Virus record (IMG/VR): IMGVR_UViG_3300032173_000002
Location: 36,373 to 100,372 of that record
Length of the DNA: 64,000 bases
Direction: 5' to 3' (one strand)
From: a virus
The notes below the pieces were generated by a model that worked only from the letters and a program-made list of their open reading frames with translations, made no database searches and was not told where the DNA came from. The translations under genes were made by a program, and so were the position numbers. Positions 1,931 through 47,793 of the stretch are shown here, in pieces (the first letter of the stretch is position 1; each line of letters begins with the position of its first letter).

Positions 1931-2854
1931 GTGGAACCCATTACTATTGGGGTCAATACTAGGAATCGTCCTGAAGCCCTTGCTGTTCAAATCCACTCCA
2001 TCATTCACCAGACTTACCCTTTCTGGTCTTTGATAATCATGGATTGTAGCGACATCCCTGTGATTCAGTTGGAGCCGATTCAGAAGCTTCTGGAGCTTGC
2101 CAAGAAGCTAGGGCATTCTGTTCAGGTTATCAGGCATAAATCTACTTTTGGTATTCCCCAGACCTACCAGAAGCTAATGGAAATATCGAACACCGAGCTG
2201 AATGTAAGGGAGGAAGATGATGCTCCATGGCATCCAGAGCTTCTCATTAGGCTTTACGAGGAGATGGTTAAGAATCCTAACTTGGGAGCGGCAGGACCTA
2301 CCTGTCCTAACTGGAATGATGCTGGGGCAGTGCATAATACTTGGCCGGGAACTAATTACTTCTACATAACTGATAATCATGCTTGGCGACAGCAGTTGGG
2401 TCCGGTTTTGATAGCGGATGATGTTCAGCGCAGACCATGGCCGTCCGTGGAGCCTATTCCTGTGTGCGTGATGCATGGTGGGTTTATGTATCGTAAGAGT
2501 TTGATGGTAAAAGCTGGTGGATTCTGCACGAATCTTTCTACCCAGGGACACAGGGAAGAGACCTGGGCTTCCTTGCGGTTGTTTCTTTCGGGTGCGGATA
2601 TTCTATTTGTTCCCAGAGCCATTCGATGGCATCTGGAACTTCAATCTGGAGGTAGCAGGGACAGATCAGTTGACAATGATCGGATGGCCCTAAAAATGAG
2701 AGATGAAAGACTTTTCCAAGACTGGATGAGGGGTGTGTTAGGGTCGGGCAATTCCCGCATATCGGAGATACCTATCTTCGCTGACGAAAGTTTACGGGAG
2801 AGGATTAGTGCCCAGCAGGCATTAGAACTATTAACCGAATGTAAAGTGGGGTAG
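1931..2854 (+). CDS. Glycosyltransferase family 2
   Basis: ITIGVNTRNRP N-terminus, IIMDCS, EEDDA (DxD-like), GGF...REET. Confidence 0.8.
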   Translation: MEPITIGVNTRNRPEALAVQIHSIIHQTYPFWSLIIMDCSDIPVIQLEPIQKLLELAKKLGHSVQVIRHKSTFGIPQTYQKLMEISNTELNVREEDDAPWHPELLIRLYEEMVKNPNLGAAGPTCPNWNDAGAVHNTWPGTNYFYITDNHAWRQQLGPVLIADDVQRRPWPSVEPIPVCVMHGGFMYRKSLMVKAGGFCTNLSTQGHREETWASLRLFLSGADILFVPRAIRWHLELQSGGSRDRSVDNDRMALKMRDERLFQDWMRGVLGSGNSRISEIPIFADESLRERISAQQALELLTECKVG

Positions 2855-2862: not shown

Positions 2863-3306
2863 ATGAGCAGAGCAGGAAGAATCATTGAACTGCTAGAGGA
2901 AGTAGATATGGGTGCTCAATGTACTTGTGATGATCCACTTCCGATGAAGTATGGACAATGGGACCCACCTGTTTATGTCTGTGCCAAATGCGGTAAGAAT
3001 TTCATGAAACGAGTAGAGTCTGGTGAAGTGGTAGTAGGGGAATCAAAGGCGAAAAGTCTTGGGCTTGTAGAACAGGGAGAAGGGAAGACTTATATAGCGG
3101 TTGGCCCCCTGTGCTGGGGCAAAGCATCCAGCAGGGAAGACGCTATTAAAAGCTGTAAGGGATTCTGGCCTTCGTATATTAAGTTTTCTCCTGAGAAGGT
3201 AAGTATTTATGTAACAGATGATCCAAATGCGTGGGTTGATGAGTACGGCATGATCCATTATAGAGGAAGTCTTGAGCAGATTCAGAAAGCAGGACCTGTG
3301 AGATGA
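2863..3306 (+). CDS. Leader-bearing hypothetical protein with a small Zn ribbon
   Basis: MSRAGRIIELLEE leader; CTC...CAKC; SD GGGAG. Confidence 0.7.
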   Translation: MSRAGRIIELLEEVDMGAQCTCDDPLPMKYGQWDPPVYVCAKCGKNFMKRVESGEVVVGESKAKSLGLVEQGEGKTYIAVGPLCWGKASSREDAIKSCKGFWPSYIKFSPEKVSIYVTDDPNAWVDEYGMIHYRGSLEQIQKAGPVR

Positions 3307-3382
3307 ATAGCAATGCAAGAAAGGTCATCGAGTTGTGAGGGCGGTTCGAGATTGATATTGATCGGAATTTGAGGGATATAAG

Positions 3383-4699
3383 TTGATTCATGCAAGGGAT
3401 TTTCTTGAGGATCGAATAGTAAGGGAGCAGAGCTATACCACAGGAGTGGATTTATCCAAGAAGACTGTTTTGGTTTATGATTTTGGTCTTTTCTCTGGAA
3501 TAGCGGAGCGCCTCGGTAGAAGCTTCGGAAAGGTCTATTACCATGTTCCGTGGGAGGACGCCTATCCCAGGGCTGGAAAGGCCCTCGTTGGGCGAGGTCT
3601 TCCTGGAGTGGAGAAGGCTTTGGAGTTTTGGCCTTTGGTGGACAAAGTGGACCTGATTTTCTTCCCGGATACTCATTGCTCAGCACTGGCAAGACACCTG
3701 AAGGATCTAGGTTATCCTGTTGCTGCTGCCTTGGAGGCGGAGAGTTTGGAACTGGACAGGGCTTTCGGTAGGCAAGTTCAGAAAGAGATGGGTTTGGACT
3801 ACCAAAAGACAGATCGAGTAATTGGTGTCTCCAACTTGCTAAAGTATCTTGCAGACTATCCAGATGGTGGAAAGTATGTGAAGATTGATATATTCCGGGG
3901 AGAAGTGGAAACATTTCAGCACATTGACTTACCTACCAGCAAAGGGATTTTGGATGTGTTTACCGCAGATATGGGACCCGCAGCAGAGACCATTCCCTTT
4001 TTAGTGGAGGAGAAGGTATCTGGTGTGGAAGGGGGTCTAGATACCATCGTTTGGGATGGGGAGACTCTTTCTCCTACTTGGTTTAGCTACCTTGATGAAA
4101 ATGCCTATATTGCTAAGACGATGGATTTCAAAGAAGTTCCTGACCCGTTTCGGAAAGTTCACGAAGGGTTAGCTCCGGTATTCCGTAAATGGGGCACTAA
4201 GTTTTTCTTCTCCACTGAGATTATTTATGGAAAGAGTCATAGTAAGGCATATCTGATAGATTATACTCTGCGGAACGCAAATCCCTGTATCTCTACTTTA
4301 CAAGCGGAGGTGATCAAGAACTTCCCGGAGCTGATTTGGGCTATGGGTACTGGGGAGAGAGTGGATCCCTGGATCGAGGCTCCATATTGTGGTAGTGTGA
4401 TACTCAACTCTCGGTGGTTCATAAATAACTGGGGACATGTGAAGGTGGATCCCTCTGTGAAGCCTTTTGTTACTTTTCGCTTTCACTATCGGGATAAGGA
4501 CGGAGAGCCGTATCGGTTGCCTGGCTACTCCTCGATGGTGGCTTTTGCTTTGGCTTGGGGGGACTCGGTAGAAGAGGTGATTGCCCTTCTGGAGGAAAGG
4601 CAAGCAAAGGTGAGCTTCCCTTGTCAGGAGAAGTCTTTTCCCAGGGACGAGATAATGAAGGGTTTAGCTGCTTTTGAGAAGGAAGGTATCGAATTCTAA
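3383..4699 (+). CDS. ATP-grasp (PurD-like) ligase with leader
   Basis: AESLELDRAFGRQV, YVKID, FLVEEKVSGVE, YLIDYTLR motifs; begins MIHARDFLEDRIVRE. Confidence 0.65.
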   Translation: MIHARDFLEDRIVREQSYTTGVDLSKKTVLVYDFGLFSGIAERLGRSFGKVYYHVPWEDAYPRAGKALVGRGLPGVEKALEFWPLVDKVDLIFFPDTHCSALARHLKDLGYPVAAALEAESLELDRAFGRQVQKEMGLDYQKTDRVIGVSNLLKYLADYPDGGKYVKIDIFRGEVETFQHIDLPTSKGILDVFTADMGPAAETIPFLVEEKVSGVEGGLDTIVWDGETLSPTWFSYLDENAYIAKTMDFKEVPDPFRKVHEGLAPVFRKWGTKFFFSTEIIYGKSHSKAYLIDYTLRNANPCISTLQAEVIKNFPELIWAMGTGERVDPWIEAPYCGSVILNSRWFINNWGHVKVDPSVKPFVTFRFHYRDKDGEPYRLPGYSSMVAFALAWGDSVEEVIALLEERQAKVSFPCQEKSFPRDEIMKGLAAFEKEGIEF

Positions 4700-4720
4700 G
4701 GAGACAGAAAGGAGACAGAA

Positions 4721-4945
4721 ATGAGCAAAGCGCAGGAGTTACTAACTCAACTTCTTGAGCGGGATGTAGGTTCTGTTTACTCTAAAGCAGTTTCCTTGGG
4801 ATATACCTACATTCGTGGGGGGAAACCTGATAAGACAGGCAAAGTCTGGCTGACCAGGTTTACCAAGTCGGGTGACCCGGATAGCCCTGCTATTTTTGTT
4901 GGGTATGATGAGGAGACGGGAGAGTTTGTAGTAGAGGAAGAGTAG
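4721..4945 (+). CDS. Leader-bearing hypothetical protein
   Basis: MSKAQELLTQLLE; SD AAGGAG. Confidence 0.7.
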   Translation: MSKAQELLTQLLERDVGSVYSKAVSLGYTYIRGGKPDKTGKVWLTRFTKSGDPDSPAIFVGYDEETGEFVVEEE

Positions 4946-5028
4946 AGTGTCGAATTCTAAGCCTAAGACCAGGGCTATGCAATTCCTTGAAGATGGTGAT
5001 TAGCAGGAACGGAAAAGGGAGGCTAAAA

Positions 5029-5361
5029 ATGAGCAAAGCGCAGGAGTTAATTGGTGTTCTTAATGAAACAGGGGAGATGTCATACAGGGATATTGAACCT
5101 GGCGGAGAGGATTATGAATGGGCTAAGGCAATTGAGGGTGCCGTAAGGAGGATAGAGAGCAAAACGGGAGGCAAGCTGAAATTCATCGAGATGAGACCTT
5201 TTGACAAGTACCAAGGACCATATGCCAGTGTTACAATAAATGGAAGGAGAGATCGTATTTGGGATGCCGGTGATCCTGAAAAACCGCTTGCCCTTTACAT
5301 AGAGGAACTCGGTTTTACTGGAACTGAGGATGAAGTAGCAGACTATATCAATAGTCTTTAG
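5029..5361 (+). CDS. Leader-bearing hypothetical protein
   Basis: MSKAQELIGVLNE after SD GGGAGG; start reassigned from 4987. Confidence 0.7.
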   Translation: MSKAQELIGVLNETGEMSYRDIEPGGEDYEWAKAIEGAVRRIESKTGGKLKFIEMRPFDKYQGPYASVTINGRRDRIWDAGDPEKPLALYIEELGFTGTEDEVADYINSL

Positions 5362-5410
5362 TAGTCCTGTATGGGCATGCAAGAAGCTATTAGCAGAGGA
5401 TTCGGGTGAA

Positions 5411-5812
5411 ATGAATAGGGCCCGACAGTTTCTCGAATATAACAGTCAAGGCTGGATTGGCGTGGACTTGGATGGTACTCTTGCTCATTACGATTCTGGA
5501 TATTCTAGTCACTTCATGGTGGGCCCACCTATTCCAGCTATGCTGGCGAGAGTGAAGGATTGGCTGGCTCAAGGGAAGGATGTGAGAATCTTTACTGCTC
5601 GTGTAGCACCACCTCACTCCGAGGAGGTGATTGCAAGGCAGAGAGGAATAATTGAAGATTGGTGTTTGGAGCACCTCGGTACTGTCTTGCCTATTACAGC
5701 TACCAAGGATTACGAGATGCTGGAGTTATGGGATGATCGCTGTGTGACTGTGGAAAAGAACACAGGAAGGTGTTTGACTTTATTGCGAGGAGAAATAGAA
5801 GGACTACAATGA
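5411..5812 (+). CDS. HAD-superfamily phosphatase with leader
   Basis: GVDLDGTL, IFTAR, K...WDDR HAD motifs; begins MNRARQFLE. Confidence 0.8.
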   Translation: MNRARQFLEYNSQGWIGVDLDGTLAHYDSGYSSHFMVGPPIPAMLARVKDWLAQGKDVRIFTARVAPPHSEEVIARQRGIIEDWCLEHLGTVLPITATKDYEMLELWDDRCVTVEKNTGRCLTLLRGEIEGLQ

Positions 5813-5843
5813 GAGAGGGTTTTGAAATTAAGGGAGGTCAAAG

Positions 5844-6137
5844 ATGAATAGGTCGCAGAAAGTTATGAAACTTCTTGAAGAAGAACAGGGCGATGCTCCG
5901 TTTTTCATTGACAAAACAAGTAAATATGGCTATAGGCTTGTCTTGAATAATAATCCATCCGGAAGGGCTTATCTCTATCTATACAATCCGGATGGAAAAC
6001 TTGGGTTGCAAGAACCCTTAGAGACTTATTTTCAATGGACACCAAACGGATGGTCTTCTGTATTTTTGGGGCTCGGCAAGTTCAAACCCTTGGAGGAGAA
6101 GGATGTCCTGAAAGTGTTCAAGAATTATGGCTTTTAA
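5844..6137 (+). CDS. Leader-bearing hypothetical protein
   Basis: MNRSQKVMKLLEE; SD GGGAGG. Confidence 0.7.
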   Translation: MNRSQKVMKLLEEEQGDAPFFIDKTSKYGYRLVLNNNPSGRAYLYLYNPDGKLGLQEPLETYFQWTPNGWSSVFLGLGKFKPLEEKDVLKVFKNYGF

Positions 6138-6219
6138 TTCCATGGTAGCCATATTTGTTCATGTCGGATGAAACAGGAAGGTGCTTGACTTTGCCAACTA
6201 AATCCCAGGGAGGACTAGA

Positions 6220-6450
6220 ATGAGCATAGCAAATAGATTTTTGGAGCAATTTATGGAGGGCTATAAGATTAGAGGTTGGATTTATGATGGAGATATTCAC
6301 TGCGAGGGTTGTGCGTATGATCGGTTTGGAGTTAGAATTTACGACGAGGAGAATCCTCCAGAGGACAGCGAAGGGAATCCTATAACTCCTTTGTTTGCAT
6401 CAGATGCAATAGGAGATGAGGTTTGTGGCGATTGTGGCTCACCGTTATAG
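6220..6450 (+). CDS. Leader-bearing small Zn-finger protein
   Basis: MSIANRFLEQFME; CEGC...CGDC. Confidence 0.7.
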   Translation: MSIANRFLEQFMEGYKIRGWIYDGDIHCEGCAYDRFGVRIYDEENPPEDSEGNPITPLFASDAIGDEVCGDCGSPL

Positions 6451-6844
6451 TAGCAGATCGGAAGCGAAGTCTAAAGCAGCTATCTTGATACGGGGGATTG
6501 AGGAGCTTTATCCTCTTTCAGAAGAGATGATTTCGGTAAAAAAGCTAGATGGAAGAACAGAGTATAAGCTGGGTCCTGTAACAGTGATTGTCTGTTACGA
6601 CGATATTGTTCTTGATTCGGAGGGGACTCGGCTCTCGCAAGAGACGGGATGGTGGGATTATAGAGGGATAATCTACATCTGGGGGCCTGAGTTAAGTCGT
6701 ATGCAGAAGCTGGGAATAGGAATTCATGAGTTTGTGGAGATGGTCTTAGAAAGTAAGTTGAGGATGCCCCATAGCTGGTCTCATTTTGTAAGTAACGTCT
6801 TAGAGTTTGTTTTTACTCTGGGGAGATCAAAACCTGATTGGTAA
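6416..6844 (+). CDS. Hypothetical protein, possibly zincin-like
   Basis: HEFVE...H..SH motif; internal leader-like SKAAILIRGIEE; start uncertain. Confidence 0.45.
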   Translation: MRFVAIVAHRYSSRSEAKSKAAILIRGIEELYPLSEEMISVKKLDGRTEYKLGPVTVIVCYDDIVLDSEGTRLSQETGWWDYRGIIYIWGPELSRMQKLGIGIHEFVEMVLESKLRMPHSWSHFVSNVLEFVFTLGRSKPDW

Positions 6845-6855
6845 GGAGATAAGAG

Positions 6856-7050
6856 ATGAAAAAGATTATCCCAGATACTGCTGAAGAGTTTACTTCCTGG
6901 CCAGAAAGCAAAGGAGGGGATGTCCTGGAGGAAACTCATCAGACTACCCCTTCCGGAAAACCTACAGAGTCAGGCTCTCCAAAGGGCTCCACTCCTGATT
7001 GGTTATACAAGAGGGAGATTTCAAGAGCTCACGGCGATTTAGTGATTTAG
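6856..7050 (+). CDS. Hypothetical protein
   Basis: ORF with SD AAGGAG. Confidence 0.5.
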   Translation: MKKIIPDTAEEFTSWPESKGGDVLEETHQTTPSGKPTESGSPKGSTPDWLYKREISRAHGDLVI

Positions 7051-7065
7051 GAGGGGACATCTACC

Positions 7066-7989
7066 ATGAGAGATGTACTCTATGAAGCGGAGCAGGAGGA
7101 GATTGGTCGCATAAGGGATCAGATCGCCGATCTCCAACAGCGAAAGTCAGATGCTGAGGACGAGGAGGAGAAGGCGAGGATCAATCTGGAGATAGCCCGA
7201 CTAAAGAAAGACCTGAGTGATTTGAAAGATGAGATCAAACCGGAGGAGTTCTCAGGAGGAGGTCGTTATATGAGCAGAGCAAGGTTTGTATTGCGAGAGT
7301 TTCATGCTCTGGAACAGCAAGCCATGGATGTTGAGGTACAGAAGAAGCTGGACGAGTTTATTTCTCTCTATCGTGAGATGAAGTCTCTGGAAGCAAGAAT
7401 AGAGGTCCTATCTGCTCGCAGTGATATTCTCCAGAAGGAGCTTGTTCCCATTATAAAGGAGTCTGCCGAGCAGATGGCTCTAGTGGAGAATGCGACAGTC
7501 AAATATAAGACTAGAGCAGTTACATCTCTTTCTTACAAGACTCTCTTTGAACAGGCCTTGGGTAAGGTGAATAAACAGACTCGTGCCATATTGGAGGACC
7601 TGAAAGAAAAGCTCACTTCCTCCTATGTGAAGGAGTTTCTGGATGTGAAGGCAGAGTCCTGGTTTACGGATTTGGTGGACAAATTTCGTAACTGGATTCG
7701 CTCGGTGGTGGAAAAGCTTGGTGTATTGAAGAGCGCTGTAGCTGAGTTACTTTCTGTGGCACAGCGGGAGCCTTCTGAATCGGAAGCATTTAGATATGGG
7801 GATAAGATTAGGTCTGCGGTAGACAAGGCTGTAACCCTCTTTCATAACAAGGGTAGCATTACGAAGGATGATGTGGTTTCTGTTTTGATAAAAGTCCTTG
7901 GCAGGATGGGGTGGGTGGCAGAAGATGTAGAGGAGGTAGTAGATCAGTTGAGGTCTGCTCATGGTATTAGAGTGAAGGAGAGCAGGTGA
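7066..7989 (+). CDS. Coiled-coil hypothetical protein with a probable internal start at 7270
   Basis: Internal GGAGGAGG SD followed by MSRARFVLREFHALE leader. Confidence 0.6.
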   Translation: MRDVLYEAEQEEIGRIRDQIADLQQRKSDAEDEEEKARINLEIARLKKDLSDLKDEIKPEEFSGGGRYMSRARFVLREFHALEQQAMDVEVQKKLDEFISLYREMKSLEARIEVLSARSDILQKELVPIIKESAEQMALVENATVKYKTRAVTSLSYKTLFEQALGKVNKQTRAILEDLKEKLTSSYVKEFLDVKAESWFTDLVDKFRNWIRSVVEKLGVLKSAVAELLSVAQREPSESEAFRYGDKIRSAVDKAVTLFHNKGSITKDDVVSVLIKVLGRMGWVAEDVEEVVDQLRSAHGIRVKESR

Positions 7990-8714
7990 GATTCCATTCT
8001 GATTGTGATAAACGACTCTTCCTCTTAGAAGTGGGGAGAGTCGATTTACTGGATAAAGTGAAGGGCGATTCCTGGGAACCCTCCTCTGACTTGGTGGAGC
8101 TTTTTATCAAGGGTCGGCAATCCTTGATTCCTAAACTGAAGGACTTCCGCAGGTCACAAGCCACAAAGTCAGCATGGAGGCACCACCGACCTGCCTTCTT
8201 AAAGGGGATTCGTACCTTTCATAGGTCAACAGCGGGAAAGCGGTTCCACCGAACATTAGGCAGGTGGTTAGCCACTCGTCTTCAAGATAGGGATAAGTTT
8301 GGTTCTATCTACTCTTTGCGAAATGAGTCCCTGGAGCAGAGAGTGGATTTGCTTAGGGCTATTACTTCCATTATGAACTATGCTTTTCAAGAGTTGGAGT
8401 TCTATCACGATCTTTATGAGGAGCTGGATTACTGGGAATTTTTGGAAGAGCTTTTCCCCATTGCTGAATCCATAGAGAGGAAGCTGTTTTCTGGGGAGGA
8501 TGAGTTGACTGAGGAAGAGATAGATGTGCTTGCAAGAATGGTAGAGGATGATGAGATAGTAGCTTCTGTCGCAGAGGCCATAGGGAGAAGCAGGGAGGAT
8601 GTCTGGAATAGGCTAAGAGAAGTTAGGTCAAAGAGCGAATCGGATGAGGAGATCGGGTGGGGACTGAGATTATTTCAGGAAATGTTATCTCTGACGGAGG
8701 TCAAGAATGACTAG
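7986..8714 (+). CDS. Hypothetical protein
   Basis: 242-aa ORF overlapping the upstream stop (GTGA). Confidence 0.6.
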   Translation: MRFHSDCDKRLFLLEVGRVDLLDKVKGDSWEPSSDLVELFIKGRQSLIPKLKDFRRSQATKSAWRHHRPAFLKGIRTFHRSTAGKRFHRTLGRWLATRLQDRDKFGSIYSLRNESLEQRVDLLRAITSIMNYAFQELEFYHDLYEELDYWEFLEELFPIAESIERKLFSGEDELTEEEIDVLARMVEDDEIVASVAEAIGRSREDVWNRLREVRSKSESDEEIGWGLRLFQEMLSLTEVKND

Positions 8715-8733
8715 GAAAGGAGGGAGTTGAGGG

Positions 8734-9324
8734 ATGAGTAAGCTAAGGTCGGGAAGAATTACGGAGGAACTGGGGACTCTCTGGGTAGCCCCAGGGATGG
8801 GAGCTACTGTAGATGAACTACTGGCCAGTTTGCAAGGTGCGCAACATTTGGCTGGCTGGGAGGCTGCTGCGGCAAACTTACTCAGACTGAAAAATGAGAG
8901 GGGTGAGGATTGGAGGACGAACTTGGCACTGATGACGGGGTGGCCTCTTCAAGAGTATGATATGGCTCGCATGGCTTCTGCTGCTGTTGAGTCCAAGAGG
9001 AAGCCAGTTTCTGCCAGCAGCTTTATAGCTGAGTTTCGGTGTTTAGAAGGAGAAGAGGATGAGGAGCAAGTAAGAGAATATGAAAAAAGGAAGAAGCTTG
9101 AAACTCGTACAGCAGAGGACGGTAGTCTTCTGGTCAAGATTGGGGAAGACAGGTGGCAGAAGCTCCCCAGAGGCTGGACTGAGGATAGCCTACGAAAGTT
9201 TTGGAAGAGCTTGACTGGGGATCGTAAGCACAAGATCACTGCTTGTATGAAGAAGATGGCGGGGATCATTGATGATCCAGGGGCATTCTGTGGTGGTCTC
9301 GCTTCTCGACTGGGGGAAAGATAA
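8734..9324 (+). CDS. Hypothetical protein
   Basis: ORF with SD; C-terminal ACMKKM...DDPGAFC segment. Confidence 0.6.
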   Translation: MSKLRSGRITEELGTLWVAPGMGATVDELLASLQGAQHLAGWEAAAANLLRLKNERGEDWRTNLALMTGWPLQEYDMARMASAAVESKRKPVSASSFIAEFRCLEGEEDEEQVREYEKRKKLETRTAEDGSLLVKIGEDRWQKLPRGWTEDSLRKFWKSLTGDRKHKITACMKKMAGIIDDPGAFCGGLASRLGER

Positions 9325-9584
9325 TGTGGACAGGGACAGCAGCACAGTATATTCTTCCATTTCATGAATCCGTTCGTGAATCCGTTCTTGATGGGGTGGA
9401 CAGGCTGATAGCTGATCACGGACTGGGGGATGTGTTATCGGCATTGGTCCAGACTTGTGAGAACCGTTACAGCAAGGCATCTCTAAATGGGTGGTCTGAT
9501 AGAGCCCAATTCTGGAAACGATTGAGGGACAGGCTAATTCCATTGGCTACGGAGGTATTACAGGATGAGGGGACTGCCCCATGA
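9324..9584 (+). CDS. Hypothetical protein
   Basis: TAATG overlap with the upstream stop. Confidence 0.5.
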   Translation: MWTGTAAQYILPFHESVRESVLDGVDRLIADHGLGDVLSALVQTCENRYSKASLNGWSDRAQFWKRLRDRLIPLATEVLQDEGTAP

Positions 9585-9651
9585 TCTCTGCTAAGAGTTT
9601 TCTCAAGGGACAGAAGTACGATGTTAAAACTGGAAAGAAGTTGGAGGGGCA

Positions 9652-10473
9652 ATGAGGAGTGCAAGTGAAGTAATTAGACTATGGGAAGATGCTGATGAGG
9701 ATTCTTCCCAGCAAAGTGTTTCTAATCTGGGTGCTATTCCTAATCCTGCGGCAGGAGTAGTGACTATCCAGCATCCAAATCGAATTCGCAGGAGATTCAA
9801 GAAAACAAAGTGGCCTTGGGGCTACGAAGACAGGGAGGACAGAAAAATGTCGAGGGCTAAGGATTTCCTGGGCATATTTGAGCAGGATGAGCCGGCTGTA
9901 ATGGATGTTACGCCTGGGGAAGTAGAGACTTCAGTAGAGGAGAAACCGATTGACAAAGAGGAGCTTCTCACTAAGATCTCATCTATGAAGGATCTTATTG
10001 ATGGGTCTATGGACACTTGTATAGCTACCATCAAGAGAGCAGAGACGGATGACGAGATTAAGATGGCGTCTTCTGTACTCCGGGCAACCCTGAGTGGGGT
10101 TGTGAGTGGTTTTCAGGAGGGGCGTAACAAGCCAAAGGTGAGGAAGCGGGAAGTTCGAGAGCAGGCCTGGCTAGACACGGGAGAAGTAGACTTATGTGCT
10201 AACTATGATCCGGATGAGGCTTCTTGCAAGTCCGGCTGCTCAAGTGAAGTGGTAGTGGCAGGCGATGTGTGTCCTTACATACAGGACCAATCTGTGTGTG
10301 ACTGCTATTTGGCGGAGTCGGGTGAGTCGCAAAAGAAAGTCCGGGAGCAATTTGATTGTGGTAACTTAATTGAGGGTGAAATATGCGAAACAGGATGTCC
10401 AACAGAAGGGGTAGATAAGGGTAGCAAGTGTCCATTTTTAGGTAGTCAAATGGGCTGTGGCTGTTATCAATAG
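9652..10473 (+). CDS. Leader-bearing protein with two 6-Cys modules; probable internal start at 9847
   Basis: MRSASEVIRLWED and internal MSRAKDFLGIFEQ; repeated C-x-N...C-x-[ST]GC...CP[YF]...CxCY. Confidence 0.65.
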   Translation: MRSASEVIRLWEDADEDSSQQSVSNLGAIPNPAAGVVTIQHPNRIRRRFKKTKWPWGYEDREDRKMSRAKDFLGIFEQDEPAVMDVTPGEVETSVEEKPIDKEELLTKISSMKDLIDGSMDTCIATIKRAETDDEIKMASSVLRATLSGVVSGFQEGRNKPKVRKREVREQAWLDTGEVDLCANYDPDEASCKSGCSSEVVVAGDVCPYIQDQSVCDCYLAESGESQKKVREQFDCGNLIEGEICETGCPTEGVDKGSKCPFLGSQMGCGCYQ

Positions 10474-10482
10474 GAGCTTGAA

Positions 10483-10713
10483 ATGACTAAAGCAGCTAAT
10501 CTGATCCGCGAGCTTTCTGAAGAGGAAGCTCCTCGCTGCGTCAATTTGGGGAGTGATCAGCAATGTGTCACAGGCTGTATGGTCCGTGAGGAGGGGATAG
10601 TTCCCCAGGGTGCACCTTGTCCCCACTTGGATTCATTCACTGTATGTCCGTGCTATCAGGCTTCCAGACCTTACAGGAAGCCCTGGGAAGGGAAGACGAA
10701 GAAAGGCCCATGA
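10483..10713 (+). CDS. Leader plus one 6-Cys module
   Basis: MTKAANLIRELSEE followed by CVN...CVTGC...CPH...CPCY. Confidence 0.7.
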   Translation: MTKAANLIRELSEEEAPRCVNLGSDQQCVTGCMVREEGIVPQGAPCPHLDSFTVCPCYQASRPYRKPWEGKTKKGP

Positions 10714-10958
10714 ACATAGTTTCGAGGGCTCGGCGAGTCCAAGATGCGCTTGGAGAACCCCTTAGCGAAGGAGACTCTACAGTTCTCTACTTTACAAGAG
10801 TTTTTGTAGGTGGCCCTTTTGCTGGAGTGGCTATGAATGACTATAAGCTTTTCTCCTCCGCCAAGGAAGCAATCGAGTGGGCTAAGAAAGGCAAGGAGGG
10901 AATTGAAAATTGGAAAGTGATCAAGGCTTCTTTCCAGAAGTATTGGAGGGACAGGTAA
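10710..10958 (+). CDS. Leader-bearing hypothetical protein
   Basis: ATGA overlap; MNIVSRARRVQDALGE. Confidence 0.6.
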   Translation: MNIVSRARRVQDALGEPLSEGDSTVLYFTRVFVGGPFAGVAMNDYKLFSSAKEAIEWAKKGKEGIENWKVIKASFQKYWRDR

Positions 10959-10959
10959 G

Positions 10960-11331
10960 ATGGGTTTGGCCAGAGATGTTTTGAAACTGGTGGAAGAGAT
11001 AGAGAAGGGGGGATCGCTGAGGTTTAAGAGGACCCTTAAATCTGGCTCTTGGTTAAGGCCAGGAAGCTTTGCGCCTCACAGGTCGAAGTGGGGTATTTAT
11101 TCGAAGGACGGAAAGATTTTGGGTATTCTTCAGCATGGGGGTGGAAACAATGGCTGGTGCGTATTGGATGCTGTGACTAGGAAACCCGTGACTAATAGTG
11201 ATCAGCTATTGAATTTTAGACAGGCCTGGGATGCGGCCAAGGGAATTTTTTCAGGAGCGCCAATCTCCCAGGAGACTGGTGGGGCTGTATTGCCCTCCTC
11301 TGAATCTTTGATTCTTAGGAGAATGAGGTGA
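10960..11331 (+). CDS. Leader-bearing hypothetical protein
   Basis: MGLARDVLKLVEE. Confidence 0.65.
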   Translation: MGLARDVLKLVEEIEKGGSLRFKRTLKSGSWLRPGSFAPHRSKWGIYSKDGKILGILQHGGGNNGWCVLDAVTRKPVTNSDQLLNFRQAWDAAKGIFSGAPISQETGGAVLPSSESLILRRMR

Positions 11332-11335
11332 GCAG

Positions 11336-11608
11336 TTGAAAGGGAATAATGTTGCTCTGGACTACTTGTATTCTTTAGCTACTCACAGACCTGCTTCTTG
11401 GGATTTCATAGACTCCACTGACTTTAGTTTACTCCCTTCCTGGGTCAGGTCTTATCTGGAGGGATTGGAGGTCCGCGAAGTAAGTGGTAATCCGGAGTCT
11501 ACAGGAGAGGATTGTCTGTTACGGAGGGAGGGACAATTGTTCTGGGTAAGTATAGGTGCTCGTTATTTGAGAATTGAGAATTTTGTAGCAAAGGGAGGTG
11601 ACTTATGA
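11336..11608 (+). CDS. Hypothetical protein
   Basis: ORF in operon context. Confidence 0.45.
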   Translation: MKGNNVALDYLYSLATHRPASWDFIDSTDFSLLPSWVRSYLEGLEVREVSGNPESTGEDCLLRREGQLFWVSIGARYLRIENFVAKGGDL

Positions 11609-11814
11609 AATATGGAGTGTGGTGGATAGATGCTGATCAGAAAGAGCAGAAGGAGTATTTCGACACTGAGGATGCAAGGATGGCGAAGGTCAAGGAGTTG
11701 ATGGCCACTAACTTGCCCTGGAAGCTGATACCGGAGCATAGGGTTGCGGGATCAAGCATGACAACAGCTAAGGATGTCCTTAAACTGGTGGAAGAGATAG
11801 GCTCAAGAGGCTAA
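11605..11814 (+). CDS. Hypothetical protein ending in a leader copy
   Basis: SD GGAGGTGA; C-terminal MTTAKDVLKLVEEIG. Confidence 0.55.
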   Translation: MKYGVWWIDADQKEQKEYFDTEDARMAKVKELMATNLPWKLIPEHRVAGSSMTTAKDVLKLVEEIGSRG

Positions 11815-11843: not shown

Positions 11844-12377
11844 ATGGCATATCGAATCATACCTACCGATCCAACAAAGACGCTGTTTATCAAGACTAAC
11901 GATGGGGAAATCTACCATACTTTCGCTAGTGGATCTACGCCGTATTGGATTGTCGTGTCCAATTCGGTGTACGATGAGATTGACGACAGTGTAGAGCGAT
12001 TGAAAGAATCTGGAGCGCTGAGTGTTAGTGTAGTCCAGGATTTCTCCCCCATAAAAGACCCAGTTAGGGTGGTTGCGACTAGCAACATTACTCTGGCTAA
12101 TCAGCAGACAATTGATGGTGTTGCTGTTGTTGCAGGGGACAGAGTGCTGGCTGCGGGACAGACTGATGCTAAGACCAAAGGTATTTATGATGTAGCTTCT
12201 GGGGCAAACTGGACTCGCTCCGGTGATTTTGATGCTTCCTACAAGATTCAGGGTGGGGTTCTGATCCCGGTAGCTGAGGGAACAGCTAATCATGATACCA
12301 TCTGGATCTTGACGACAGACGACCCGATTATTTTGGGAACTACCAGTCTTACCTTTGAAGCTTACGCCTCCCTGTAA
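11844..12377 (+). CDS. Virion structural protein (head decoration or fibre-like domain)
   Basis: VRVVATSNITL...TIDGV...GDRVL...GIY...WTR domain common in phage virion proteins; shares the 16-nt RBS AGAAGGAGGTAACAAA with the major capsid gene. Confidence 0.65.
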   Translation: MAYRIIPTDPTKTLFIKTNDGEIYHTFASGSTPYWIVVSNSVYDEIDDSVERLKESGALSVSVVQDFSPIKDPVRVVATSNITLANQQTIDGVAVVAGDRVLAAGQTDAKTKGIYDVASGANWTRSGDFDASYKIQGGVLIPVAEGTANHDTIWILTTDDPIILGTTSLTFEAYASL

Positions 12378-12417: not shown

Positions 12418-13824
12418 GTGGGTAGATTGATCAGAGGAGTGTTTGATCCAGGGGTCAAGTTCGAGTTTGTGGAAGGTGCGCCAGGGGAAGTGGACGGGGA
12501 GCATATCCTGGGTAAGGTGCGAGGGAGGTTCTTCGTCCCTGGTGGAGTTTCTCGGAATTCCCGTTACTATCCTCCAGAAGTATGGGAACGACAGCTTGGT
12601 CTTGAAGAAGTAAAGTCCAGGCTGGAGAACAAGCAGATGTTCGGAACGATTGGCCACGAGGATGAGATTAGTGATAAGAATCTTCGTGATGGAAAGATGT
12701 CGCATATTGTTACTCGTCTCACTCCTGACGGACAGAACTGCGAGGCCTTGATTCTGAACACACCTGCCGGGAAGGTGCTAAATACAGTTCTTCGTGCCGG
12801 GGCAAAGTTGTATGTTTCCAGCAGAGCAGATGGAGAGTATAAGGGAACGCACAATGGGGTTCCTATGGTTGACCCAGAGAAGTTCAAACTGGAGGGTTTT
12901 GATTTTGTTTTAGATCCTGGATTCCTGGAGGCAAACCCAGGTCTAGTGGAAAGTTACAAAGCTGATTTTGATTCTGTTCTTGGAGGTGATGCAATTCCGA
13001 AGAGAAATTTTACTGAAAAGGAGGTAGTGAAATCTATGGAACAAGAATTTGCAGAGGCCTTGATGAAGAAGAATAGTCGTCTGGAGGAGGAACTTAATCG
13101 GGTGTTAGGTGAACTTCAGATGCAGACTTCTAGAGCCAATAGTTTGGAGGCTGAGAGGTCAGTTTGGTCTCAGAAAGAAAGGGATCTCACCGAAACTAAG
13201 AAAGCCTTGGAAAGTGCGCAGGCTTCTCTGAAAGAGTATGAGTCTTTGGGGACTCCTTCGGAGATTTCCAGAGCATTTGACTTAGCTATGAAAATGAAGG
13301 AGTCTTTCAAGGAGCTTGGCACCCCGAAAGAGATTTCCAGGGCATTTGATTTGGCAGCTAAGAGGTTGAGGGAGTACAAGTCCCTTGGATCAGTTTCTGA
13401 GATTAGGAAAGCTCTTGATCTTGCTCGCAAACTTCTGGAAGCTTACAAGCCTCTTGGAAGGCCGGGAGAGATCAAGGCTGCTTTCGATAAGGCAGAGGGA
13501 TTTATCAGGAGAGTCCGGGAGACTCAAAAGAAGAAAAAGGTTGAGGCCTTATCGAAGGAACTGGGTGTCCCTGAGAAGGATATTACCAAAGTCCTGGGCA
13601 AGCCAGTGAAGGAGGAGGATATAAAGGACTTGGTGAAATCGCTCAGAGAGAGCACCAAGGCTAAGGACAGGTTCGGTGCTCGGCCCAAGGACAAGGATTC
13701 GGGCGGTTCCGATAACGAGTCTAGGGGCGTTGACTTCAGCGAGTCCTTAGCAGACAGGCTGTCCAGGCAGTTCAATCGGACAGTCCCAACTTCGAAGAAG
13801 AAAGTAAGTCCAATTAACAGTTAG
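12418..13824 (+). CDS. Prohead protease (T4 gp21-like) fused to a scaffold domain
   Basis: RNSRYY, GTIGH, VSSRADG, FDFVLDPGFLEA motifs; coiled-coil C-terminal half with four ~21-aa LGTPxEIxxAFDLA repeats. Confidence 0.85.
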   Translation: MGRLIRGVFDPGVKFEFVEGAPGEVDGEHILGKVRGRFFVPGGVSRNSRYYPPEVWERQLGLEEVKSRLENKQMFGTIGHEDEISDKNLRDGKMSHIVTRLTPDGQNCEALILNTPAGKVLNTVLRAGAKLYVSSRADGEYKGTHNGVPMVDPEKFKLEGFDFVLDPGFLEANPGLVESYKADFDSVLGGDAIPKRNFTEKEVVKSMEQEFAEALMKKNSRLEEELNRVLGELQMQTSRANSLEAERSVWSQKERDLTETKKALESAQASLKEYESLGTPSEISRAFDLAMKMKESFKELGTPKEISRAFDLAAKRLREYKSLGSVSEIRKALDLARKLLEAYKPLGRPGEIKAAFDKAEGFIRRVRETQKKKKVEALSKELGVPEKDITKVLGKPVKEEDIKDLVKSLRESTKAKDRFGARPKDKDSGGSDNESRGVDFSESLADRLSRQFNRTVPTSKKKVSPINS

Positions 13825-13841: not shown

Positions 13842-15257
13842 ATGCCGGAAATGCAAGAAGCTTTAGCAGAGGCGCGAGTTAATAAGATGCGGCGGGAGGC
13901 CGAGCGCCTGTATGAGAGATATCCCAAACAAATGAACACCCTGGAGAGCAAGTCCTTGCTATCCAGAGTTAGACAGATTGAGTATTGGGATATTTATGGT
14001 CTTGGGAAAATTCTGGAGCAATTTTCCGAAGACCTAAAGATGTTTGAGGAGCAAGGGAATGTGGGGCTACTGGGCGTTATCCCCAACATTGCCTTCGATG
14101 TCTTGACAGTAGCATATGGTGCAAGCATCGTGCCTTTAATCTGCTCGGTACAGCCTATCGAGGAAGAACAGGGCACAGTGTACTTCAAGACAGTTCGGTC
14201 TGCCACCCAGAAGGGGAACTTGACTGCTGGCCAGACCATCTTGGATCCTCGCTCGATTCAGGTAACTCCCTATGCCTTCGCTAGCAACTATGTATCTGGG
14301 GAGGTAGCGGGAACTACTTCCAATGGTGTAACTGAGTATGCCCTGACAACCAATACTACCCCAGTGAGACCGAGAACCTTTTCCGTTGCTATCTCTGAAC
14401 TCTCTGTTTCGGGAGTGGATGATGGTAGCGGGAATATTGCCGGAGTGGGTTGCTCAGGGACAATCGATTACACCACAGGAGTAGTGAACCTGACCCTTGT
14501 GGAAGATCCGGGCGATACTTACAACATCACCTTTAGCTACCAGATCAACTATGAGTTAGCTGAGACTCTTCCGAATATAGATAGTTACTATGCAAGCCAG
14601 ACCATTCTTGCTAAGGTGTTTGCCCTTAGAGGAACTGTCGGCTTGCTGATGAGCTATGGATTAAGGAAGAGATTCGGGCTCATCGCAGAGGATGAGCTTG
14701 CTAAGGATCTGGTGAACGAGATCAATGCGGAAATTGGGGGAACTCTGATCCGTATGATGTATAGCAAAGCAGTGGGAAATACAGATTGGGATCAGACAGT
14801 CCCTGACGGAGTCAGTTGGTTCGAGCACCAGATGAGTTACAAGAAAGCGGTAGCCTATGCAGAGTCCACCATTGTAGGGAATGCCGGTCGCGGGACGATC
14901 AGTGGTTTGATCGTTGGACAATCCCATTCTGCGATCTATGAGACTTTGCCTGGGTTCGAGAAGCTAACCGATGGGAACACCATCGGGCCGCATCTCTTCG
15001 GCACCTTCGATGGAAAGTCGGTTATTCGGGTTCCTGAAACTTCCATGCTGGGGACTTGGAATGGACTTGCTTTCTGGAAGGGTACAAGCCCGTTTGAAGC
15101 TCCTGCGGTGTATTCCCCGTTCATGCCGTTAGTGGTTACAGATTTGCTTCCTATCGGCCTGAACCCGTTGGGAACACAGCGGGCGGCTGCGGTATGGGCT
15201 GGACTGGATGTGTTGGTCGAACGGTTCATTACCAAGCTGACTGTAACTCAGACCTAA
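13842..15257 (+). CDS. Major capsid protein (T4 gp23-like)
   Basis: SVQPI...GTVYF, EINAEI, YSPFMPL motifs; follows the protease; strong RBS; hairpin downstream. Confidence 0.9.
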   Translation: MPEMQEALAEARVNKMRREAERLYERYPKQMNTLESKSLLSRVRQIEYWDIYGLGKILEQFSEDLKMFEEQGNVGLLGVIPNIAFDVLTVAYGASIVPLICSVQPIEEEQGTVYFKTVRSATQKGNLTAGQTILDPRSIQVTPYAFASNYVSGEVAGTTSNGVTEYALTTNTTPVRPRTFSVAISELSVSGVDDGSGNIAGVGCSGTIDYTTGVVNLTLVEDPGDTYNITFSYQINYELAETLPNIDSYYASQTILAKVFALRGTVGLLMSYGLRKRFGLIAEDELAKDLVNEINAEIGGTLIRMMYSKAVGNTDWDQTVPDGVSWFEHQMSYKKAVAYAESTIVGNAGRGTISGLIVGQSHSAIYETLPGFEKLTDGNTIGPHLFGTFDGKSVIRVPETSMLGTWNGLAFWKGTSPFEAPAVYSPFMPLVVTDLLPIGLNPLGTQRAAAVWAGLDVLVERFITKLTVTQT

Positions 15258-15269
15258 GTGAAGTGAAAG

Positions 15270-15307
15270 CCAGAGGGAGAGGTCTTATCCCTCTCCCTCT
15301 GGTGTTT
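15270..15307 (+). terminator. Stem-loop terminator after the major capsid gene
   Basis: Perfect 13-bp stem CCAGAGGGAGAGG/CCTCTCCCTCTGG followed by TGTTT. Confidence 0.7.
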
Positions 15308-17484: not shown

Positions 17485-17691
17485 ATGAGCAAAGCCAGAG
17501 AGTTTTTGGAGATGGAGTTACTAAGTCAAGATCTGCGGAGGGAAGCTGCTGCTGTCGAGGATCATTTGAATAAGTTTTATGATCGTTGGCATCTCGTATT
17601 TAATGATGAGGAGTTAGATGCGATTACCTCAGCTTTGAAGATCCTTCGCAATCTTCAAAAAGTGGACTTGCTGGTCAAGCCTCAGCGTTGA
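17485..17691 (+). CDS. Leader-bearing small protein in the neck region
   Basis: MSKAREFLEMELL; SD GGAGGG. Confidence 0.6.
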   Translation: MSKAREFLEMELLSQDLRREAAAVEDHLNKFYDRWHLVFNDEELDAITSALKILRNLQKVDLLVKPQR

Positions 17692-47752: not shown

Positions 47753-47793
47753 ATGTGCAGAGATTTTTGAGATGTTCGGATTGGGGGAAAGAA

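What the first reader, a model, noticed from the sequence alone, without database searches (positions are those of the whole stretch)
2863..11814. Array of unrelated cargo genes sharing a portable N-terminal leader: candidate capsid-targeting and protease-maturation system
Seen: about 15 starts share M-[S/T/N]-[K/R]-A-x-x-hydrophobic-hydrophobic-x-x-hydrophobic-x-E. They are 2863 MSRAGRIIELLEE, 3383 MIHARDFLEDRIVRE, 4721 MSKAQELLTQLLE, 5029 MSKAQELIGVLNE, 5411 MNRARQFLE, 5844 MNRSQKVMKLLEE, 6220 MSIANRFLEQFME, 7270 MSRARFVLREFHALE, 9652 MRSASEVIRLWED, 9847 MSRAKDFLGIFEQ, 10483 MTKAANLIRELSEE, 10710 MNIVSRARRVQDALGE, 10960 MGLARDVLKLVEE, 11758 MTTAKDVLKLVEE, plus an outlier at 17485 MSKAREFLEMELL. 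The downstream sequences are unrelated (ATP-grasp ligase, HAD phosphatase, Zn fingers, Cys modules). I did not see the motif at the starts of replication genes. The array ends just before the gp21-like protease and gp23-like capsid genes. Established: T4 internal proteins carry a short N-terminal capsid-targeting sequence that gp21 removes after a Glu. Inference: this is a distinct, much expanded address-tag system that loads a swappable set of effectors into the head for delivery at infection.
Basis: partly seen in the sequence, partly recalled or inferred. Interest (0 to 1): 0.85.

Follow-up and report, generated by a model that had tools for sequence, protein, structure and literature searches.

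The report
Shared head-loading tag on phage proteins
About twenty unrelated proteins of this uncultivated 100-kb phage, and many in its relatives, start with the same 13-residue helical peptide, which looks like a much-expanded version of the phage T4 tag that loads proteins into the virus head and is then cut off; no experiment has tested this.

Summary
The leader is M-[S/N]-[K/R]-A-x-x-Φ-Φ-x-x-Φ-x-E. A scoring matrix built from it finds 19 start sites at 14.7 bits or more in the 100,372-bp genome, and the next best start scores 9.6. All 19 are on the + strand. All lie between the portal gene and the tail-sheath gene; none is among replication genes.

The conservation is at peptide level, not DNA level. 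Cargoes are diverse: 92 fall into 69 clusters. Two cargo families (a PurD-like ATP-grasp and a HAD-like phosphatase) have many homologues without the leader, so the leader is a portable add-on.

The leader recurs in uncultivated relatives (43-79% capsid identity), always on the capsid-gene strand, with lineage-specific variants.

The phage has a T4 gp21-type (S77) prohead protease and a gp23-type capsid protein. The leader ends in Φ-x-E, the T4 cleavage logo, and the capsid propeptide has an invariant Φ-x-E. Applied to T4, the matrix ranks gp24, IPIII, IPII and gp21 among the top six of 229 N-termini.

The best reading (about 0.55) is a T4-like capsid-targeting propeptide system, greatly expanded. 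Packaging and cleavage are untested, most cargoes are acidic, and relatives carry leader clusters far from the head genes. The scan has noted analogous leaders with other sequences in other phages.

The parts
2801..2839 (+). Leader-like peptide RISAQQALELLTE at the C-terminal end of the glycosyltransferase ORF 1931-2854. Probably a relic of a leader.
   Evidence: 12.4 bits in the all-window scan; Glycos_transf_2 hit.
2863..3306 (+). Leader-bearing cargo of 147 aa, with CxC...CxxC Zn-ribbon-like pairs.
   Evidence: MSRAGRIIELLEE, 21.4 bits, Shine-Dalgarno GGGAG upstream. No Pfam, PHROG or Atlas assignment.
3303..3338 (+). Leader-only mini-ORF MNSNARKVIEL*. Its start overlaps the stop of the previous gene (ATGA).
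   Evidence: Read from the sequence.
3383..4699 (+). PurD-like ATP-grasp protein of 438 aa with a leader-like N-terminal extension (TTG start).
   Evidence: 14.7 bits. Profile against PDB 2yw2, E 1e-7. Homologues P0122-P0126 begin about 22 residues later and have no leader.
4721..4945 (+). Leader-bearing cargo, 74 aa.
   Evidence: 23.3 bits. Its first 23 nt are identical to those of the 5029 leader (D6).
5029..5361 (+). Leader-bearing cargo, 110 aa.
   Evidence: 21.4 bits. An orthologue with the leader is in L045.
5411..5812 (+). Leader-bearing HAD-like phosphatase, 133 aa.
   Evidence: 21.4 bits. DLDGT motif and PHROG hits. 118 of its 120 best homologues lack the leader.
5844..6137 (+). Leader-bearing cargo, 97 aa.
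   Evidence: 18.2 bits.
6220..6450 (+). Leader-bearing cargo, 76 aa, Cys-rich.
   Evidence: 23.0 bits.
6416..6844 (+). Cargo with a displaced leader, KSKAAILIRGIEE, at 6467-6505. The codon where the ATG would be is AAG.
   Evidence: 14.0 bits internally; DNA read.
7270..7989 (+). Leader-bearing coiled-coil protein of 239 aa, in frame behind a 68-aa upstream segment (7066-7269). Candidate scaffold or core protein.
   Evidence: 20.8 bits, own Shine-Dalgarno AGGAGGAGG.
7986..8714 (+). Leaderless conserved head-module protein. By N-terminal similarity seen by eye (not scored), it resembles the gene between portal and protease in Rhizobium phage RHph_TM30. Context only.
   Evidence: N-terminal similarity to RHph_TM30 gp280 and to L004, L044 and L076 orthologues.
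9652..10473 (+). Two-leader polyprotein: leader 1 at 9652, leader 2 in frame at 9847 with its own Shine-Dalgarno, then two 6-Cys modules.
   Evidence: 16.2 and 22.7 bits. The same in-frame architecture is conserved in L001.
10483..10713 (+). Leader-bearing cargo of 76 aa with one 6-Cys module.
   Evidence: 19.0 bits.
10710..10958 (+). Weak, offset leader (MNIV-SRARRVQDALGE), 82 aa. Similar N-termini occur in L005 and L009.
   Evidence: 8.4 bits.
10960..11331 (+). Leader-bearing basic cargo, 123 aa.
   Evidence: 18.1 bits. Its orthologue in L001 is fused in frame to a second leader-cargo unit.
11758..11814 (+). Leader stub (MTTAKDVLKLVEE...) at the end of ORF 11605-11814.
   Evidence: 19.4 bits; 89% DNA identity to the 10960 leader (D3).
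12418..13824 (+). Prohead protease (S77, gp21 type) fused to a coiled-coil or repeat scaffold-like C-terminal domain. Proposed to remove the leader.
   Evidence: Pfam PF03420, 29.1 bits against a cut-off of 27. BLASTP to T4 gp21, E 9e-7, with His80 and Ser134 aligned to T4 His85 and Ser140.
13842..15257 (+). Major capsid protein (gp23 type). An invariant Glu69 in M-F-E-E-Q-G-N is the putative maturation site.
   Evidence: Pfam PF07068; alignment A1.
17485..17691 (+). Leader-bearing 68-aa protein among the neck genes. A similar small protein (similarity seen by eye, not scored) occupies the same position in RHph_TM30.
   Evidence: 21.0 bits; resemblance to RHph_TM30 gp285.

Best explanation
The 13-residue leader is proposed to be a capsid-targeting propeptide of the T4 type. 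It forms a short amphipathic helix (Ala4, Φ7, Φ8, Φ11 on one face) that docks a newly made protein onto the scaffolding core of the assembling prohead. Once the shell has closed, the gp21-type (S77) prohead protease cuts after the conserved Glu of the terminal Φ-x-E, at position 12 or 13 and in some copies also position 9. The mature cargo then stays inside the head with the DNA and is available for delivery into the next host cell.

The leader is portable, so it has been put in front of many unrelated proteins. Cargo is gained and lost behind it, which leaves empty leaders and in-frame multi-unit polyproteins.

Shown here: the motif, its restriction to N-termini and to one strand, its peptide-level conservation, its portability, its spread in a phage clade, and the presence of the protease and capsid families. 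Inferred: docking to the core, cleavage, packaging and injection.
For: 1. The leader is sharply defined and specific to N-termini. All 100 matches of 10 bits or more in the genome plus 78 related loci are on the capsid-gene strand, none on the other strand.
2. Selection acts on the peptide. Nucleotide identity at codon positions 1/2/3 is 0.45/0.59/0.32. Where two leaders share an amino acid, they use the same codon 41% of the time, against 34% expected. Only two DNA-level repeat pairs exist.
3. The leader is portable. 92 cargoes fall into 69 clusters. ATP-grasp homologues begin about 22 residues later. 118 of the 120 best HAD-like homologues lack the leader.
4. The machinery is present: an S77 protease with the catalytic His and Ser aligned to T4 gp21 and a gp23-type capsid protein.
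5. The leader ends in Φ-x-E in 87 of 96 cases, against 14 of 109 other N-termini. The capsid propeptide has an invariant Glu in [MIL]-x-E-[ED]-x-G-N across 25 relatives. T4 proteases cut after Glu in a short motif (PMC5694885, PMC9026906).
6. The matrix, truncated to positions 2-10, ranks T4 gp24 first, IPIII third, IPII fourth and gp21 sixth of 229 T4 N-termini. Hypergeometric p is about 3e-5, assuming 10 of the 229 are gp21-processed. The conserved leader positions 4, 7, 8 and the terminal Glu correspond to the T4 CTS positions mapped as targeting (4, 7) and processing (8, 10) in PMC9026906.
7. Synteny. In relative L004 the leader genes lie between portal, protease and capsid genes, where T4 has the core genes 67, 68 and 22. 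No terminator separates the array from the head genes.
8. The conserved leader protein next to the portal has a very K/R-rich tail in relatives.
9. In-frame two-leader polyproteins are conserved between the genome and L001, which fits processing.
10. The structural proteins (portal, capsid, sheath, decoration-like protein) and all replication genes lack the leader.
Against: There are no proteomic, N-terminal or packaging data. No cultivated relative with the leader was found: RHph_TM30 and IME392 both lack it.

Sequence similarity to the T4 CTS itself is weak, at 1.6-3.1 bits.

Most cargoes are acidic after leader removal (net charge -18 to +10), unlike the basic T4 internal proteins.

In complete relatives, many leader genes sit in clusters of small ORFs 25-50 kb from the capsid gene. 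G002 has about 19 in 20 kb. These could be non-virion accessory genes.

Φ-x-E is a low-information motif in any amphipathic acidic helix, and the capsid cleavage site is itself inferred.

The PurD-like ATP-grasp co-occurs with leader-rich genomes (3 of 3, against 0 of 7 leader-poor ones). That could point to a different partner for the leader.
Confidence: 0.55

Rival explanations
1. The leader is a docking helix for some other phage-encoded hub: the virion exterior, the neck or tail, an assembly chaperone, or a replication or other intracellular complex. It is not removed by the prohead protease, and the conserved Glu is simply part of the binding helix.
For: The leader is predicted to be a helix (residues 3-17 of the 15936-family model). 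Leader genes in relatives are interleaved with neck genes and also lie in distant clusters of small ORFs. The cargoes are acidic. Lineage-specific variants suggest co-evolution with a phage-encoded partner, but do not say which one.
Against: The one clear surface-type protein (the decoration- or fibre-like 11844-12377) and all tail proteins lack the leader. The leader ends exactly where the Φ-x-E lies, and conservation stops there. The matrix picks T4's protease-processed N-termini. Internal leaders in conserved polyproteins fit processing.
Confidence: 0.17
2. The leader is a recognition sequence for a tailoring enzyme encoded nearby: the PurD-like ATP-grasp, the B12-radical-SAM enzyme or a glycosyltransferase. 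That enzyme modifies or ligates the tagged proteins, for example at the conserved Glu carboxylate, in the way RiPP leaders recruit maturases.
For: The array sits directly behind a B12-radical-SAM enzyme, a glycosyltransferase and an ATP-grasp. The ATP-grasp family is present in all three leader-rich near-complete genomes and absent from seven leader-poor genomes that are at least 88% complete (Fisher p=0.008). In G002 an unrelated radical-SAM gene lies inside the leader cluster. Earlier notes from this scan linked a different phage tag to a radical-SAM enzyme.
Against: There is no constant radical-SAM partner: the window's enzyme has no homologue in G001 or G002, and G001 has only a weak sub-threshold radical-SAM match. 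The ATP-grasp association is confounded by phylogeny. Leader-like N-termini at low copy number occur in complete genomes without the ATP-grasp. The cargoes are folded proteins of 60-440 aa, including enzymes, not short core peptides. The ATP-grasp itself carries a leader in this genome.
Confidence: 0.12
3. The shared start has no protein-level function. It would be a translation-initiation or recombination cassette that spreads with gene shuffling, like the promoter or stem-loop cassettes of T4-type phages.
For: Two leader pairs are similar at DNA level (D3 and D6). Leader-only stubs and fused units show recombination at leaders. The A-rich second and third codons could favour initiation.
Against: Third codon positions are close to random (0.32 identity), and synonymous codons are used almost as expected from the genome. 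The conserved positions follow a helical hydrophobic pattern up to residue 13. The motif persists down to 43% capsid identity with different codons. No long DNA repeats flank the genes.
Confidence: 0.05

Closest known systems
Capsid targeting sequence (CTS) of phage T4 internal proteins IPI, IPII and IPIII, and the 10-residue propeptide of gp24 (Mullaney & Black 1996; reviewed in PMC9026906, PMC3012670, PMC5694885)
   Same: Both are short N-terminal peptides shared by otherwise unrelated proteins. Both show conserved positions 4, 7 and 8 followed by Φ-x-E. Both phages encode a gp21-type S77 protease and a gp23-type capsid protein. Cargo sets are variable, and the genes partly sit among prohead-core genes. 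T4 gp24 (MAKINELLRE) is the best T4 match to the leader matrix.
   Different: The leader here is 13 residues, not 10, and has a different consensus (M-S-K/R-A...). Similarity to MKTYQEFIAE is only weak. There are about 19-24 copies per 100-kb genome and at least 30 in a 181-kb relative, against a handful in T4. The cargoes include enzymes and are mostly acidic rather than small and basic. The T4 ipII and ipIII leaders are identical in DNA, whereas these have diverged at synonymous sites. Function here is untested.
Protease-processed propeptides of ejection and inner-body proteins in giant phages (phiKZ, 201phi2-1, SPN3US; PMC5694885, PMC10052503)
   Same: Many head proteins are processed after Glu by a gp21-related protease, and paralogues can share identical N-termini.
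   Different: Those propeptides are mostly long (over 100 residues) and have no common leader consensus. Their cleavage motif is S/A/G-x-E or A-x-E. Those phages are over 200 kb and have an inner body or ejection-protein bolus.
Encapsulin cargo-loading peptides
   Same: A short portable peptide directs unrelated cargo into an HK97-fold shell.
   Different: As I recall (not checked here), encapsulin loading peptides are usually C-terminal and are not cleaved, and no maturation protease or genome packaging is involved.
RiPP leader peptides recognised by ATP-grasp or radical-SAM maturases
   Same: One conserved N-terminal sequence sits on many variable downstream sequences, next to tailoring enzymes.
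   Different: The downstream parts here are folded proteins up to 438 aa, and no maturase family is constantly linked to the leader.

Membership tests
T4-type capsid targeting sequence / gp21-removed N-terminal propeptide | A short (10-20 aa) N-terminal peptide shared by otherwise unrelated proteins | tested here: met
   A 13-residue motif on 19 starts. 92 cargoes fall into 69 clusters. Conservation stops after residue 13.
T4-type capsid targeting sequence / gp21-removed N-terminal propeptide | The peptide ends in the prohead protease's cleavage motif (hydrophobic-x-Glu, cut after Glu) | tested here: met
   Φ-x-E ends at residues 9-14 in 87 of 96 leaders, against 14 of 109 other N-termini. This is a sequence-level test only.
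T4-type capsid targeting sequence / gp21-removed N-terminal propeptide | The same genome encodes a gp21-type (S77) prohead protease and a gp23-type shell | tested here: met
   PF03420 and PF07068 both score above their cut-offs. His80 and Ser134 align with T4 His85 and Ser140.
T4-type capsid targeting sequence / gp21-removed N-terminal propeptide | Recognisable sequence homology to the T4 CTS MKTYQEFIAE | tested here: inconclusive
   The T4 CTS scores only 1.6-3.1 bits with the leader matrix. Even so, gp24, IPIII, IPII and gp21 rank 1st, 3rd, 4th and 6th of 229 T4 N-termini.
T4-type capsid targeting sequence / gp21-removed N-terminal propeptide | The tagged proteins are present in proheads or virions and the leader is removed | not testable with these tools
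   No cultivated member and no proteomics. RHph_TM30 and IME392 lack the leader.
T4-type capsid targeting sequence / gp21-removed N-terminal propeptide | The leader is sufficient to package a foreign protein | not testable with these tools
   This needs a fusion experiment.
T4 internal proteins (IPs) | Small, basic, DNA-associated proteins | tested here: not met
   Net charge after the leader runs from -18 to +10, and most cargoes are acidic or neutral. Only the portal-adjacent family in relatives has a K/R-rich tail.
RiPP-like leader with a dedicated maturase | Constant co-occurrence with one maturase family | tested here: not met
   For radical SAM there is no homologue of the window's enzyme in G001 or G002, and G001 has only a sub-threshold hit. 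The ATP-grasp is present in 3 of 3 leader-rich and 0 of 7 leader-poor genomes, but low-copy leader variants occur without it.
RiPP-like leader with a dedicated maturase | The substrates are short precursor peptides | tested here: not met
   The cargoes are 60-438 aa and include ATP-grasp and HAD-like enzymes.
Peptidase S77 (T4 gp21 prohead protease) | Profile match above the curated cut-off, with the catalytic His and Ser conserved | tested here: met
   29.1 bits against a cut-off of 27. Pairwise E 9e-7 with His and Ser aligned. That these are the catalytic residues is from my own knowledge of T4 gp21.

The most novel reading that the evidence does not exclude
A clade of uncultivated gp23/gp21-type myophages uses one 13-residue address tag to load some 20 to over 30 swappable proteins per genome into the capsid for co-injection. 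The cargo includes enzymes (a PurD-like ATP-grasp and a HAD-like phosphatase) and Cys-rich modules. This would be by far the largest capsid-targeting set known. It would also be a natural plug-and-play effector-delivery system with a readable consensus, possibly coupled to an ATP-grasp enzyme that co-occurs with the expansion.
Probability: 0.35. Interest if true: 0.8.

Novelty: new variant of a known kind. Interest (0 to 1): 0.6.

Why it matters
If the tag really loads proteins into the head, three things follow.

- T4's capsid-targeting principle would be widespread outside the T-even phages and could be scaled up to dozens of cargoes.
- The tag would serve as a sequence handle for listing candidate injected effectors, such as anti-defence and host-takeover proteins, in metagenomic phages that cannot be grown.
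- It would offer a short, well-defined peptide and protease site for packaging foreign proteins into other phage capsids.

Leaderless homologues of two cargo families show directly how a phage recruits ordinary proteins by adding a 13-residue prefix.

Tried and rejected
1. Leader as a mimic of the scaffold repeats. The protease C-domain repeats (EISRAFDLA...) looked leader-like by eye. They score only 1.0-8.8 bits, and the same LG[TS]PEE[IL] repeats occur in the leaderless phages RHph_TM30 and IME392. I dropped the idea.
2. Radical SAM as a constant partner: not supported.
3. DNA-level cassette. Only two short repeat pairs were found, and there is no excess of promoter-like sites.
4. Cargo function. 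PHROGs and Pfam give nothing for most cargoes. An AlphaFold model of the portal-adjacent family (pLDDT 76) has no significant Foldseek match in PDB or BFVD. The ESM Atlas gives only sub-0.9 leads. The HAD-like protein has no PDB hit by sequence.
5. Close relatives in IMG/VR using the protease alone: none found. The capsid alignment worked.
6. Near-identical DNA in cultured phages: none.
8. Literature searches found no prior description of this leader.

Full report
**What the window is.** The window is bases 36373-100372 of a single 100,372-bp virus record. Nearly all genes are on the + strand. The head genes are a Peptidase_S77 (T4 gp21-type) prohead protease fused to a coiled-coil C-terminal domain (12418-13824) and a Gp23-type major capsid protein (13842-15257). 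A tail sheath gene lies at 18633-20228.

The protease domain aligns with T4 gp21 (27% identity, E 9e-7). Its His80 and Ser134 sit opposite T4 His85 and Ser140. Terminase and portal lie upstream of the window, at genome 12216-14078 and 14179-15870. They are homologous to those of Rhizobium phage RHph_TM30 (31-32% identity). RHph_TM30 and its kin are the closest cultured relatives, at 48% capsid identity. No near-identical DNA exists among cultured phages.

**Checking the observation.** All listed starts are present, and most have a GGAGG-like Shine-Dalgarno sequence 6-10 nt upstream. I built a position matrix from 18 leaders and scanned all 5,688 candidate start codons of the genome.

- 19 sites score 14.7-23.5 bits. 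The next best scores 9.6. All 19 are on the + strand.
- When every 13-residue window of every protein is scored without counting the Met, the top 15 of about 30,000 windows still all begin at a start codon. The motif is therefore specific to N-termini.
- The T4 genome, used as a control, gives no real gene above 7.5 bits.
- Leaders outside the window lie at genome 15936 (right after the portal), 16787, 18557, 19141 and 34992 (a 24-residue stub).
- There are none in genome 0-15.9 kb or 54-100 kb, the region holding baseplate and replication genes.
- About 19 of 54 + strand ORFs of at least 55 aa between portal and sheath carry the leader.

Caveats on individual starts:

- 3383 uses a TTG start, and leaderless homologues begin 22 residues later, where there is a GTG.
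- 10710 is a weak match.
- 7270 and 9847 are in frame behind upstream segments.
- 11758 is a stub at the end of another ORF.

Further relics lie at 2801-2839, 3303-3338 and 6467-6505.

**Peptide or DNA?** The conservation is at peptide level. Pairwise nucleotide identity at codon positions 1, 2 and 3 is 0.45, 0.59 and 0.32. Where two leaders share an amino acid they share the codon 41% of the time, against 34% expected from genome codon usage. Only two leader pairs are alike as DNA (D3 and D6). No long repeats or promoter-like excess flank the genes.

**Portability.** Across the genome and 78 related loci, 92 leader-bearing proteins of at least 45 aa fall into 69 clusters, of which 59 are singletons.

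- The 438-aa protein belongs to a small family whose profile matches PurD, an ATP-grasp enzyme (PDB 2yw2, E 1e-7). Its five homologues start about 22 residues later and have no leader.
- The HAD-like protein belongs to a family with at least 7,994 members. In 105 of the 120 best hits the DxDGT motif starts within the first 14 residues. Only the window's own protein and one other carry the leader.

The leader has therefore been added to pre-existing proteins.

**Relatives.** An alignment of capsid homologues retrieved 78 IMG/VR loci. All 100 matrix hits of 10 bits or more, counted over the genome and these loci together, are on the capsid-gene strand.

- Leader counts are L021 14, L001 11, L044 10, L069 6, L076 6 and L004 5.
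- Other lineages have variants, for example M-x-L-V-x-x-L-K-x-L-L-E in L013, MRAKxLLQLLNEAE in L006 and M(K)T(K)AQEMLDFLNE in L076. Some have only one to four leader-like N-termini near the head genes.
- Conservation ends sharply at residue 12 or 13.
- In L004 the order is portal, leader genes, a conserved leaderless protein, leader genes, protease, leader gene, capsid. These are the positions of T4 genes 67, 68 and 22.
- A degenerate DNA pattern for the leader gives 8, 14 and 7 forward hits in G001, G002 and G003, none on the opposite strand and none for the reversed-pattern control. It gives 0-3 hits in 24 other relatives.

In the complete relatives some leader genes are far from the capsid gene. 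G002 has about 19 in a 20-kb block of small ORFs 37-53 kb upstream. G001 has some next to a glycosyltransferase cassette 25-35 kb downstream. The cultured relatives RHph_TM30 and IME392 lack the leader.

**Link to the protease.**

- The leader ends in hydrophobic-x-Glu in 87 of 96 cases, against 14 of 109 other N-termini.
- The capsid N-terminal region has an invariant Glu in [MIL]-x-E-[ED]-x-G-N, ten residues before the conserved IPNIAFD block, in all 25 aligned relatives. I take this to be the maturation site.
- T4-type proteases cut after Glu in a short motif, and T4 head proteins carry 10-20-residue N-terminal propeptides called CTS (PMC5694885, PMC9026906).
- From the T4 record I read the N-termini of IPII and IPIII (MKTYQEFIAE, identical DNA), gp24 (MAKINELLRE), gp22 (MLKEQLIAE), gp21 (MNEPQLLIE) and gp67 (MEGLIE).
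- The leader matrix, cut to positions 2-10, ranks gp24 first, IPIII third, IPII fourth and gp21 sixth among 229 T4 ORFs of at least 80 aa. Hypergeometric p is about 3e-5, assuming ten processed proteins in that set.
- The T4 mutational map puts targeting at residues 4 and 7 and processing at residues 8 and 10 (PMC9026906). This matches the conserved positions here: Ala4, Φ7, Φ8 and the terminal Glu.

**Other supporting details.**

- The leader protein next to the portal is conserved in seven phages. In relatives it has a very K/R-rich tail.
- Its AlphaFold model (pLDDT 76) shows the leader as a helix spanning residues 3-17.
- Two-leader in-frame polyproteins are conserved between the genome and L001. 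A fused pair in L001 corresponds to a separate gene here.
- Leader-only stubs point to cargo turnover.

**Against, and rivals.** Nothing shows that these proteins are packaged or cut.

- Most cargoes are acidic.
- The distant clusters in relatives could be ordinary accessory genes.
- Because earlier notes of this scan tied a different phage tag to a radical-SAM enzyme, I tested that link. The window's B12-radical-SAM enzyme has no homologue in G001 or G002. G002 has an unrelated radical-SAM gene inside its leader cluster. G001 has only a sub-threshold hit. There is no constant radical-SAM partner.
- The PurD-like ATP-grasp, however, is present in all three leader-rich near-complete genomes and absent from seven leader-poor genomes that are at least 88% complete (Fisher p=0.008). 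This is confounded by phylogeny, and low-copy leader variants occur without the enzyme. It remains an open lead.
- A resemblance between the leader and the scaffold repeats did not hold up.

[quoted passage not shown] This case is the same kind of system with several differences:

- a new consensus sequence;
- a different and uncultivated phage clade;
- far more copies per genome;
- enzyme cargoes;
- mostly acidic cargo.

I found no prior description of this leader. Other notes of this scan report analogous leaders with different sequences in other phages.

Noticed in passing
window 3383-4699; G001:C1:65924-67090; G002:C1:55774-57003; L006 2-1117; L007 3757-5118: A PurD-like ATP-grasp family co-occurs with leader-rich genomes: 3 of 3 leader-rich, against 0 of 7 leader-poor genomes that are at least 88% complete. 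In several relatives it sits in the head module. Only this genome's copy has the leader-like extension.
   Followed up: partly
window 12418-13824 (C-terminal half) and relatives' proteases: The protease is fused to 3-7 repeats of about 25 aa (LG[TS]PEE[IL]..A[LF]D.A...Y) and, in most relatives (diverged in this genome and L001), ends in a conserved peptide R-L-x-E-x-F-S-K. Both features also occur in leaderless cultured relatives. The end peptide may be the protease's own shell-binding tail.
   Followed up: partly
window 16051-17013: A head-tail region gene contains an intein (Pfam Intein_splicing and PT-HINT hits).
   Followed up: no
window 9652-10473 and 10483-10713: A 6-Cys mini-domain (C-x2-G-C-x8-12-C-P-x6-8-C-x-C-Y) occurs three times in the window, only in leader-bearing proteins. 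One copy is in the L001 orthologue.
   Followed up: partly
window 7986-8714: A leaderless protein is conserved between portal and protease, including in Rhizobium phage RHph_TM30. It has its own conserved N-terminal F-[LC]-x-E motif near residue 15, which may be a second type of cleaved propeptide.
   Followed up: no
window about 46419-46640 and 47755-48495: A second radical-SAM hit lies near a gene with a QueC-like SGGQDST motif. This suggests a 7-deazaguanine DNA-modification module. Similar radical-SAM hits are in G001 and G002.
   Followed up: no
window 15269-15303: A strong 14-bp GC-rich hairpin with a T-rich tail lies directly after the capsid gene. It is the only convincing terminator-like site in the first 20 kb.
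   Followed up: no
L094 (G002:C1:4001-24000): A 20-kb block of small ORFs in a complete 181.6-kb relative holds about 19 leader-bearing genes, HNH-like genes and an unrelated radical-SAM gene, 37-53 kb from the capsid gene.
   Followed up: partly
window 3303-3338; genome 34992-35066; window 11758-11814: Leader-only mini-ORFs (11, 24 and 18 residues). The first starts in an ATGA overlap with the preceding stop codon. They look like remnants of lost cargo genes.
   Followed up: partly
window 11844-12377: A leaderless 177-aa protein just upstream of the protease matches PHROG head-decoration and tail-fibre domain families (E 1e-30 to 1e-32).
   Followed up: no
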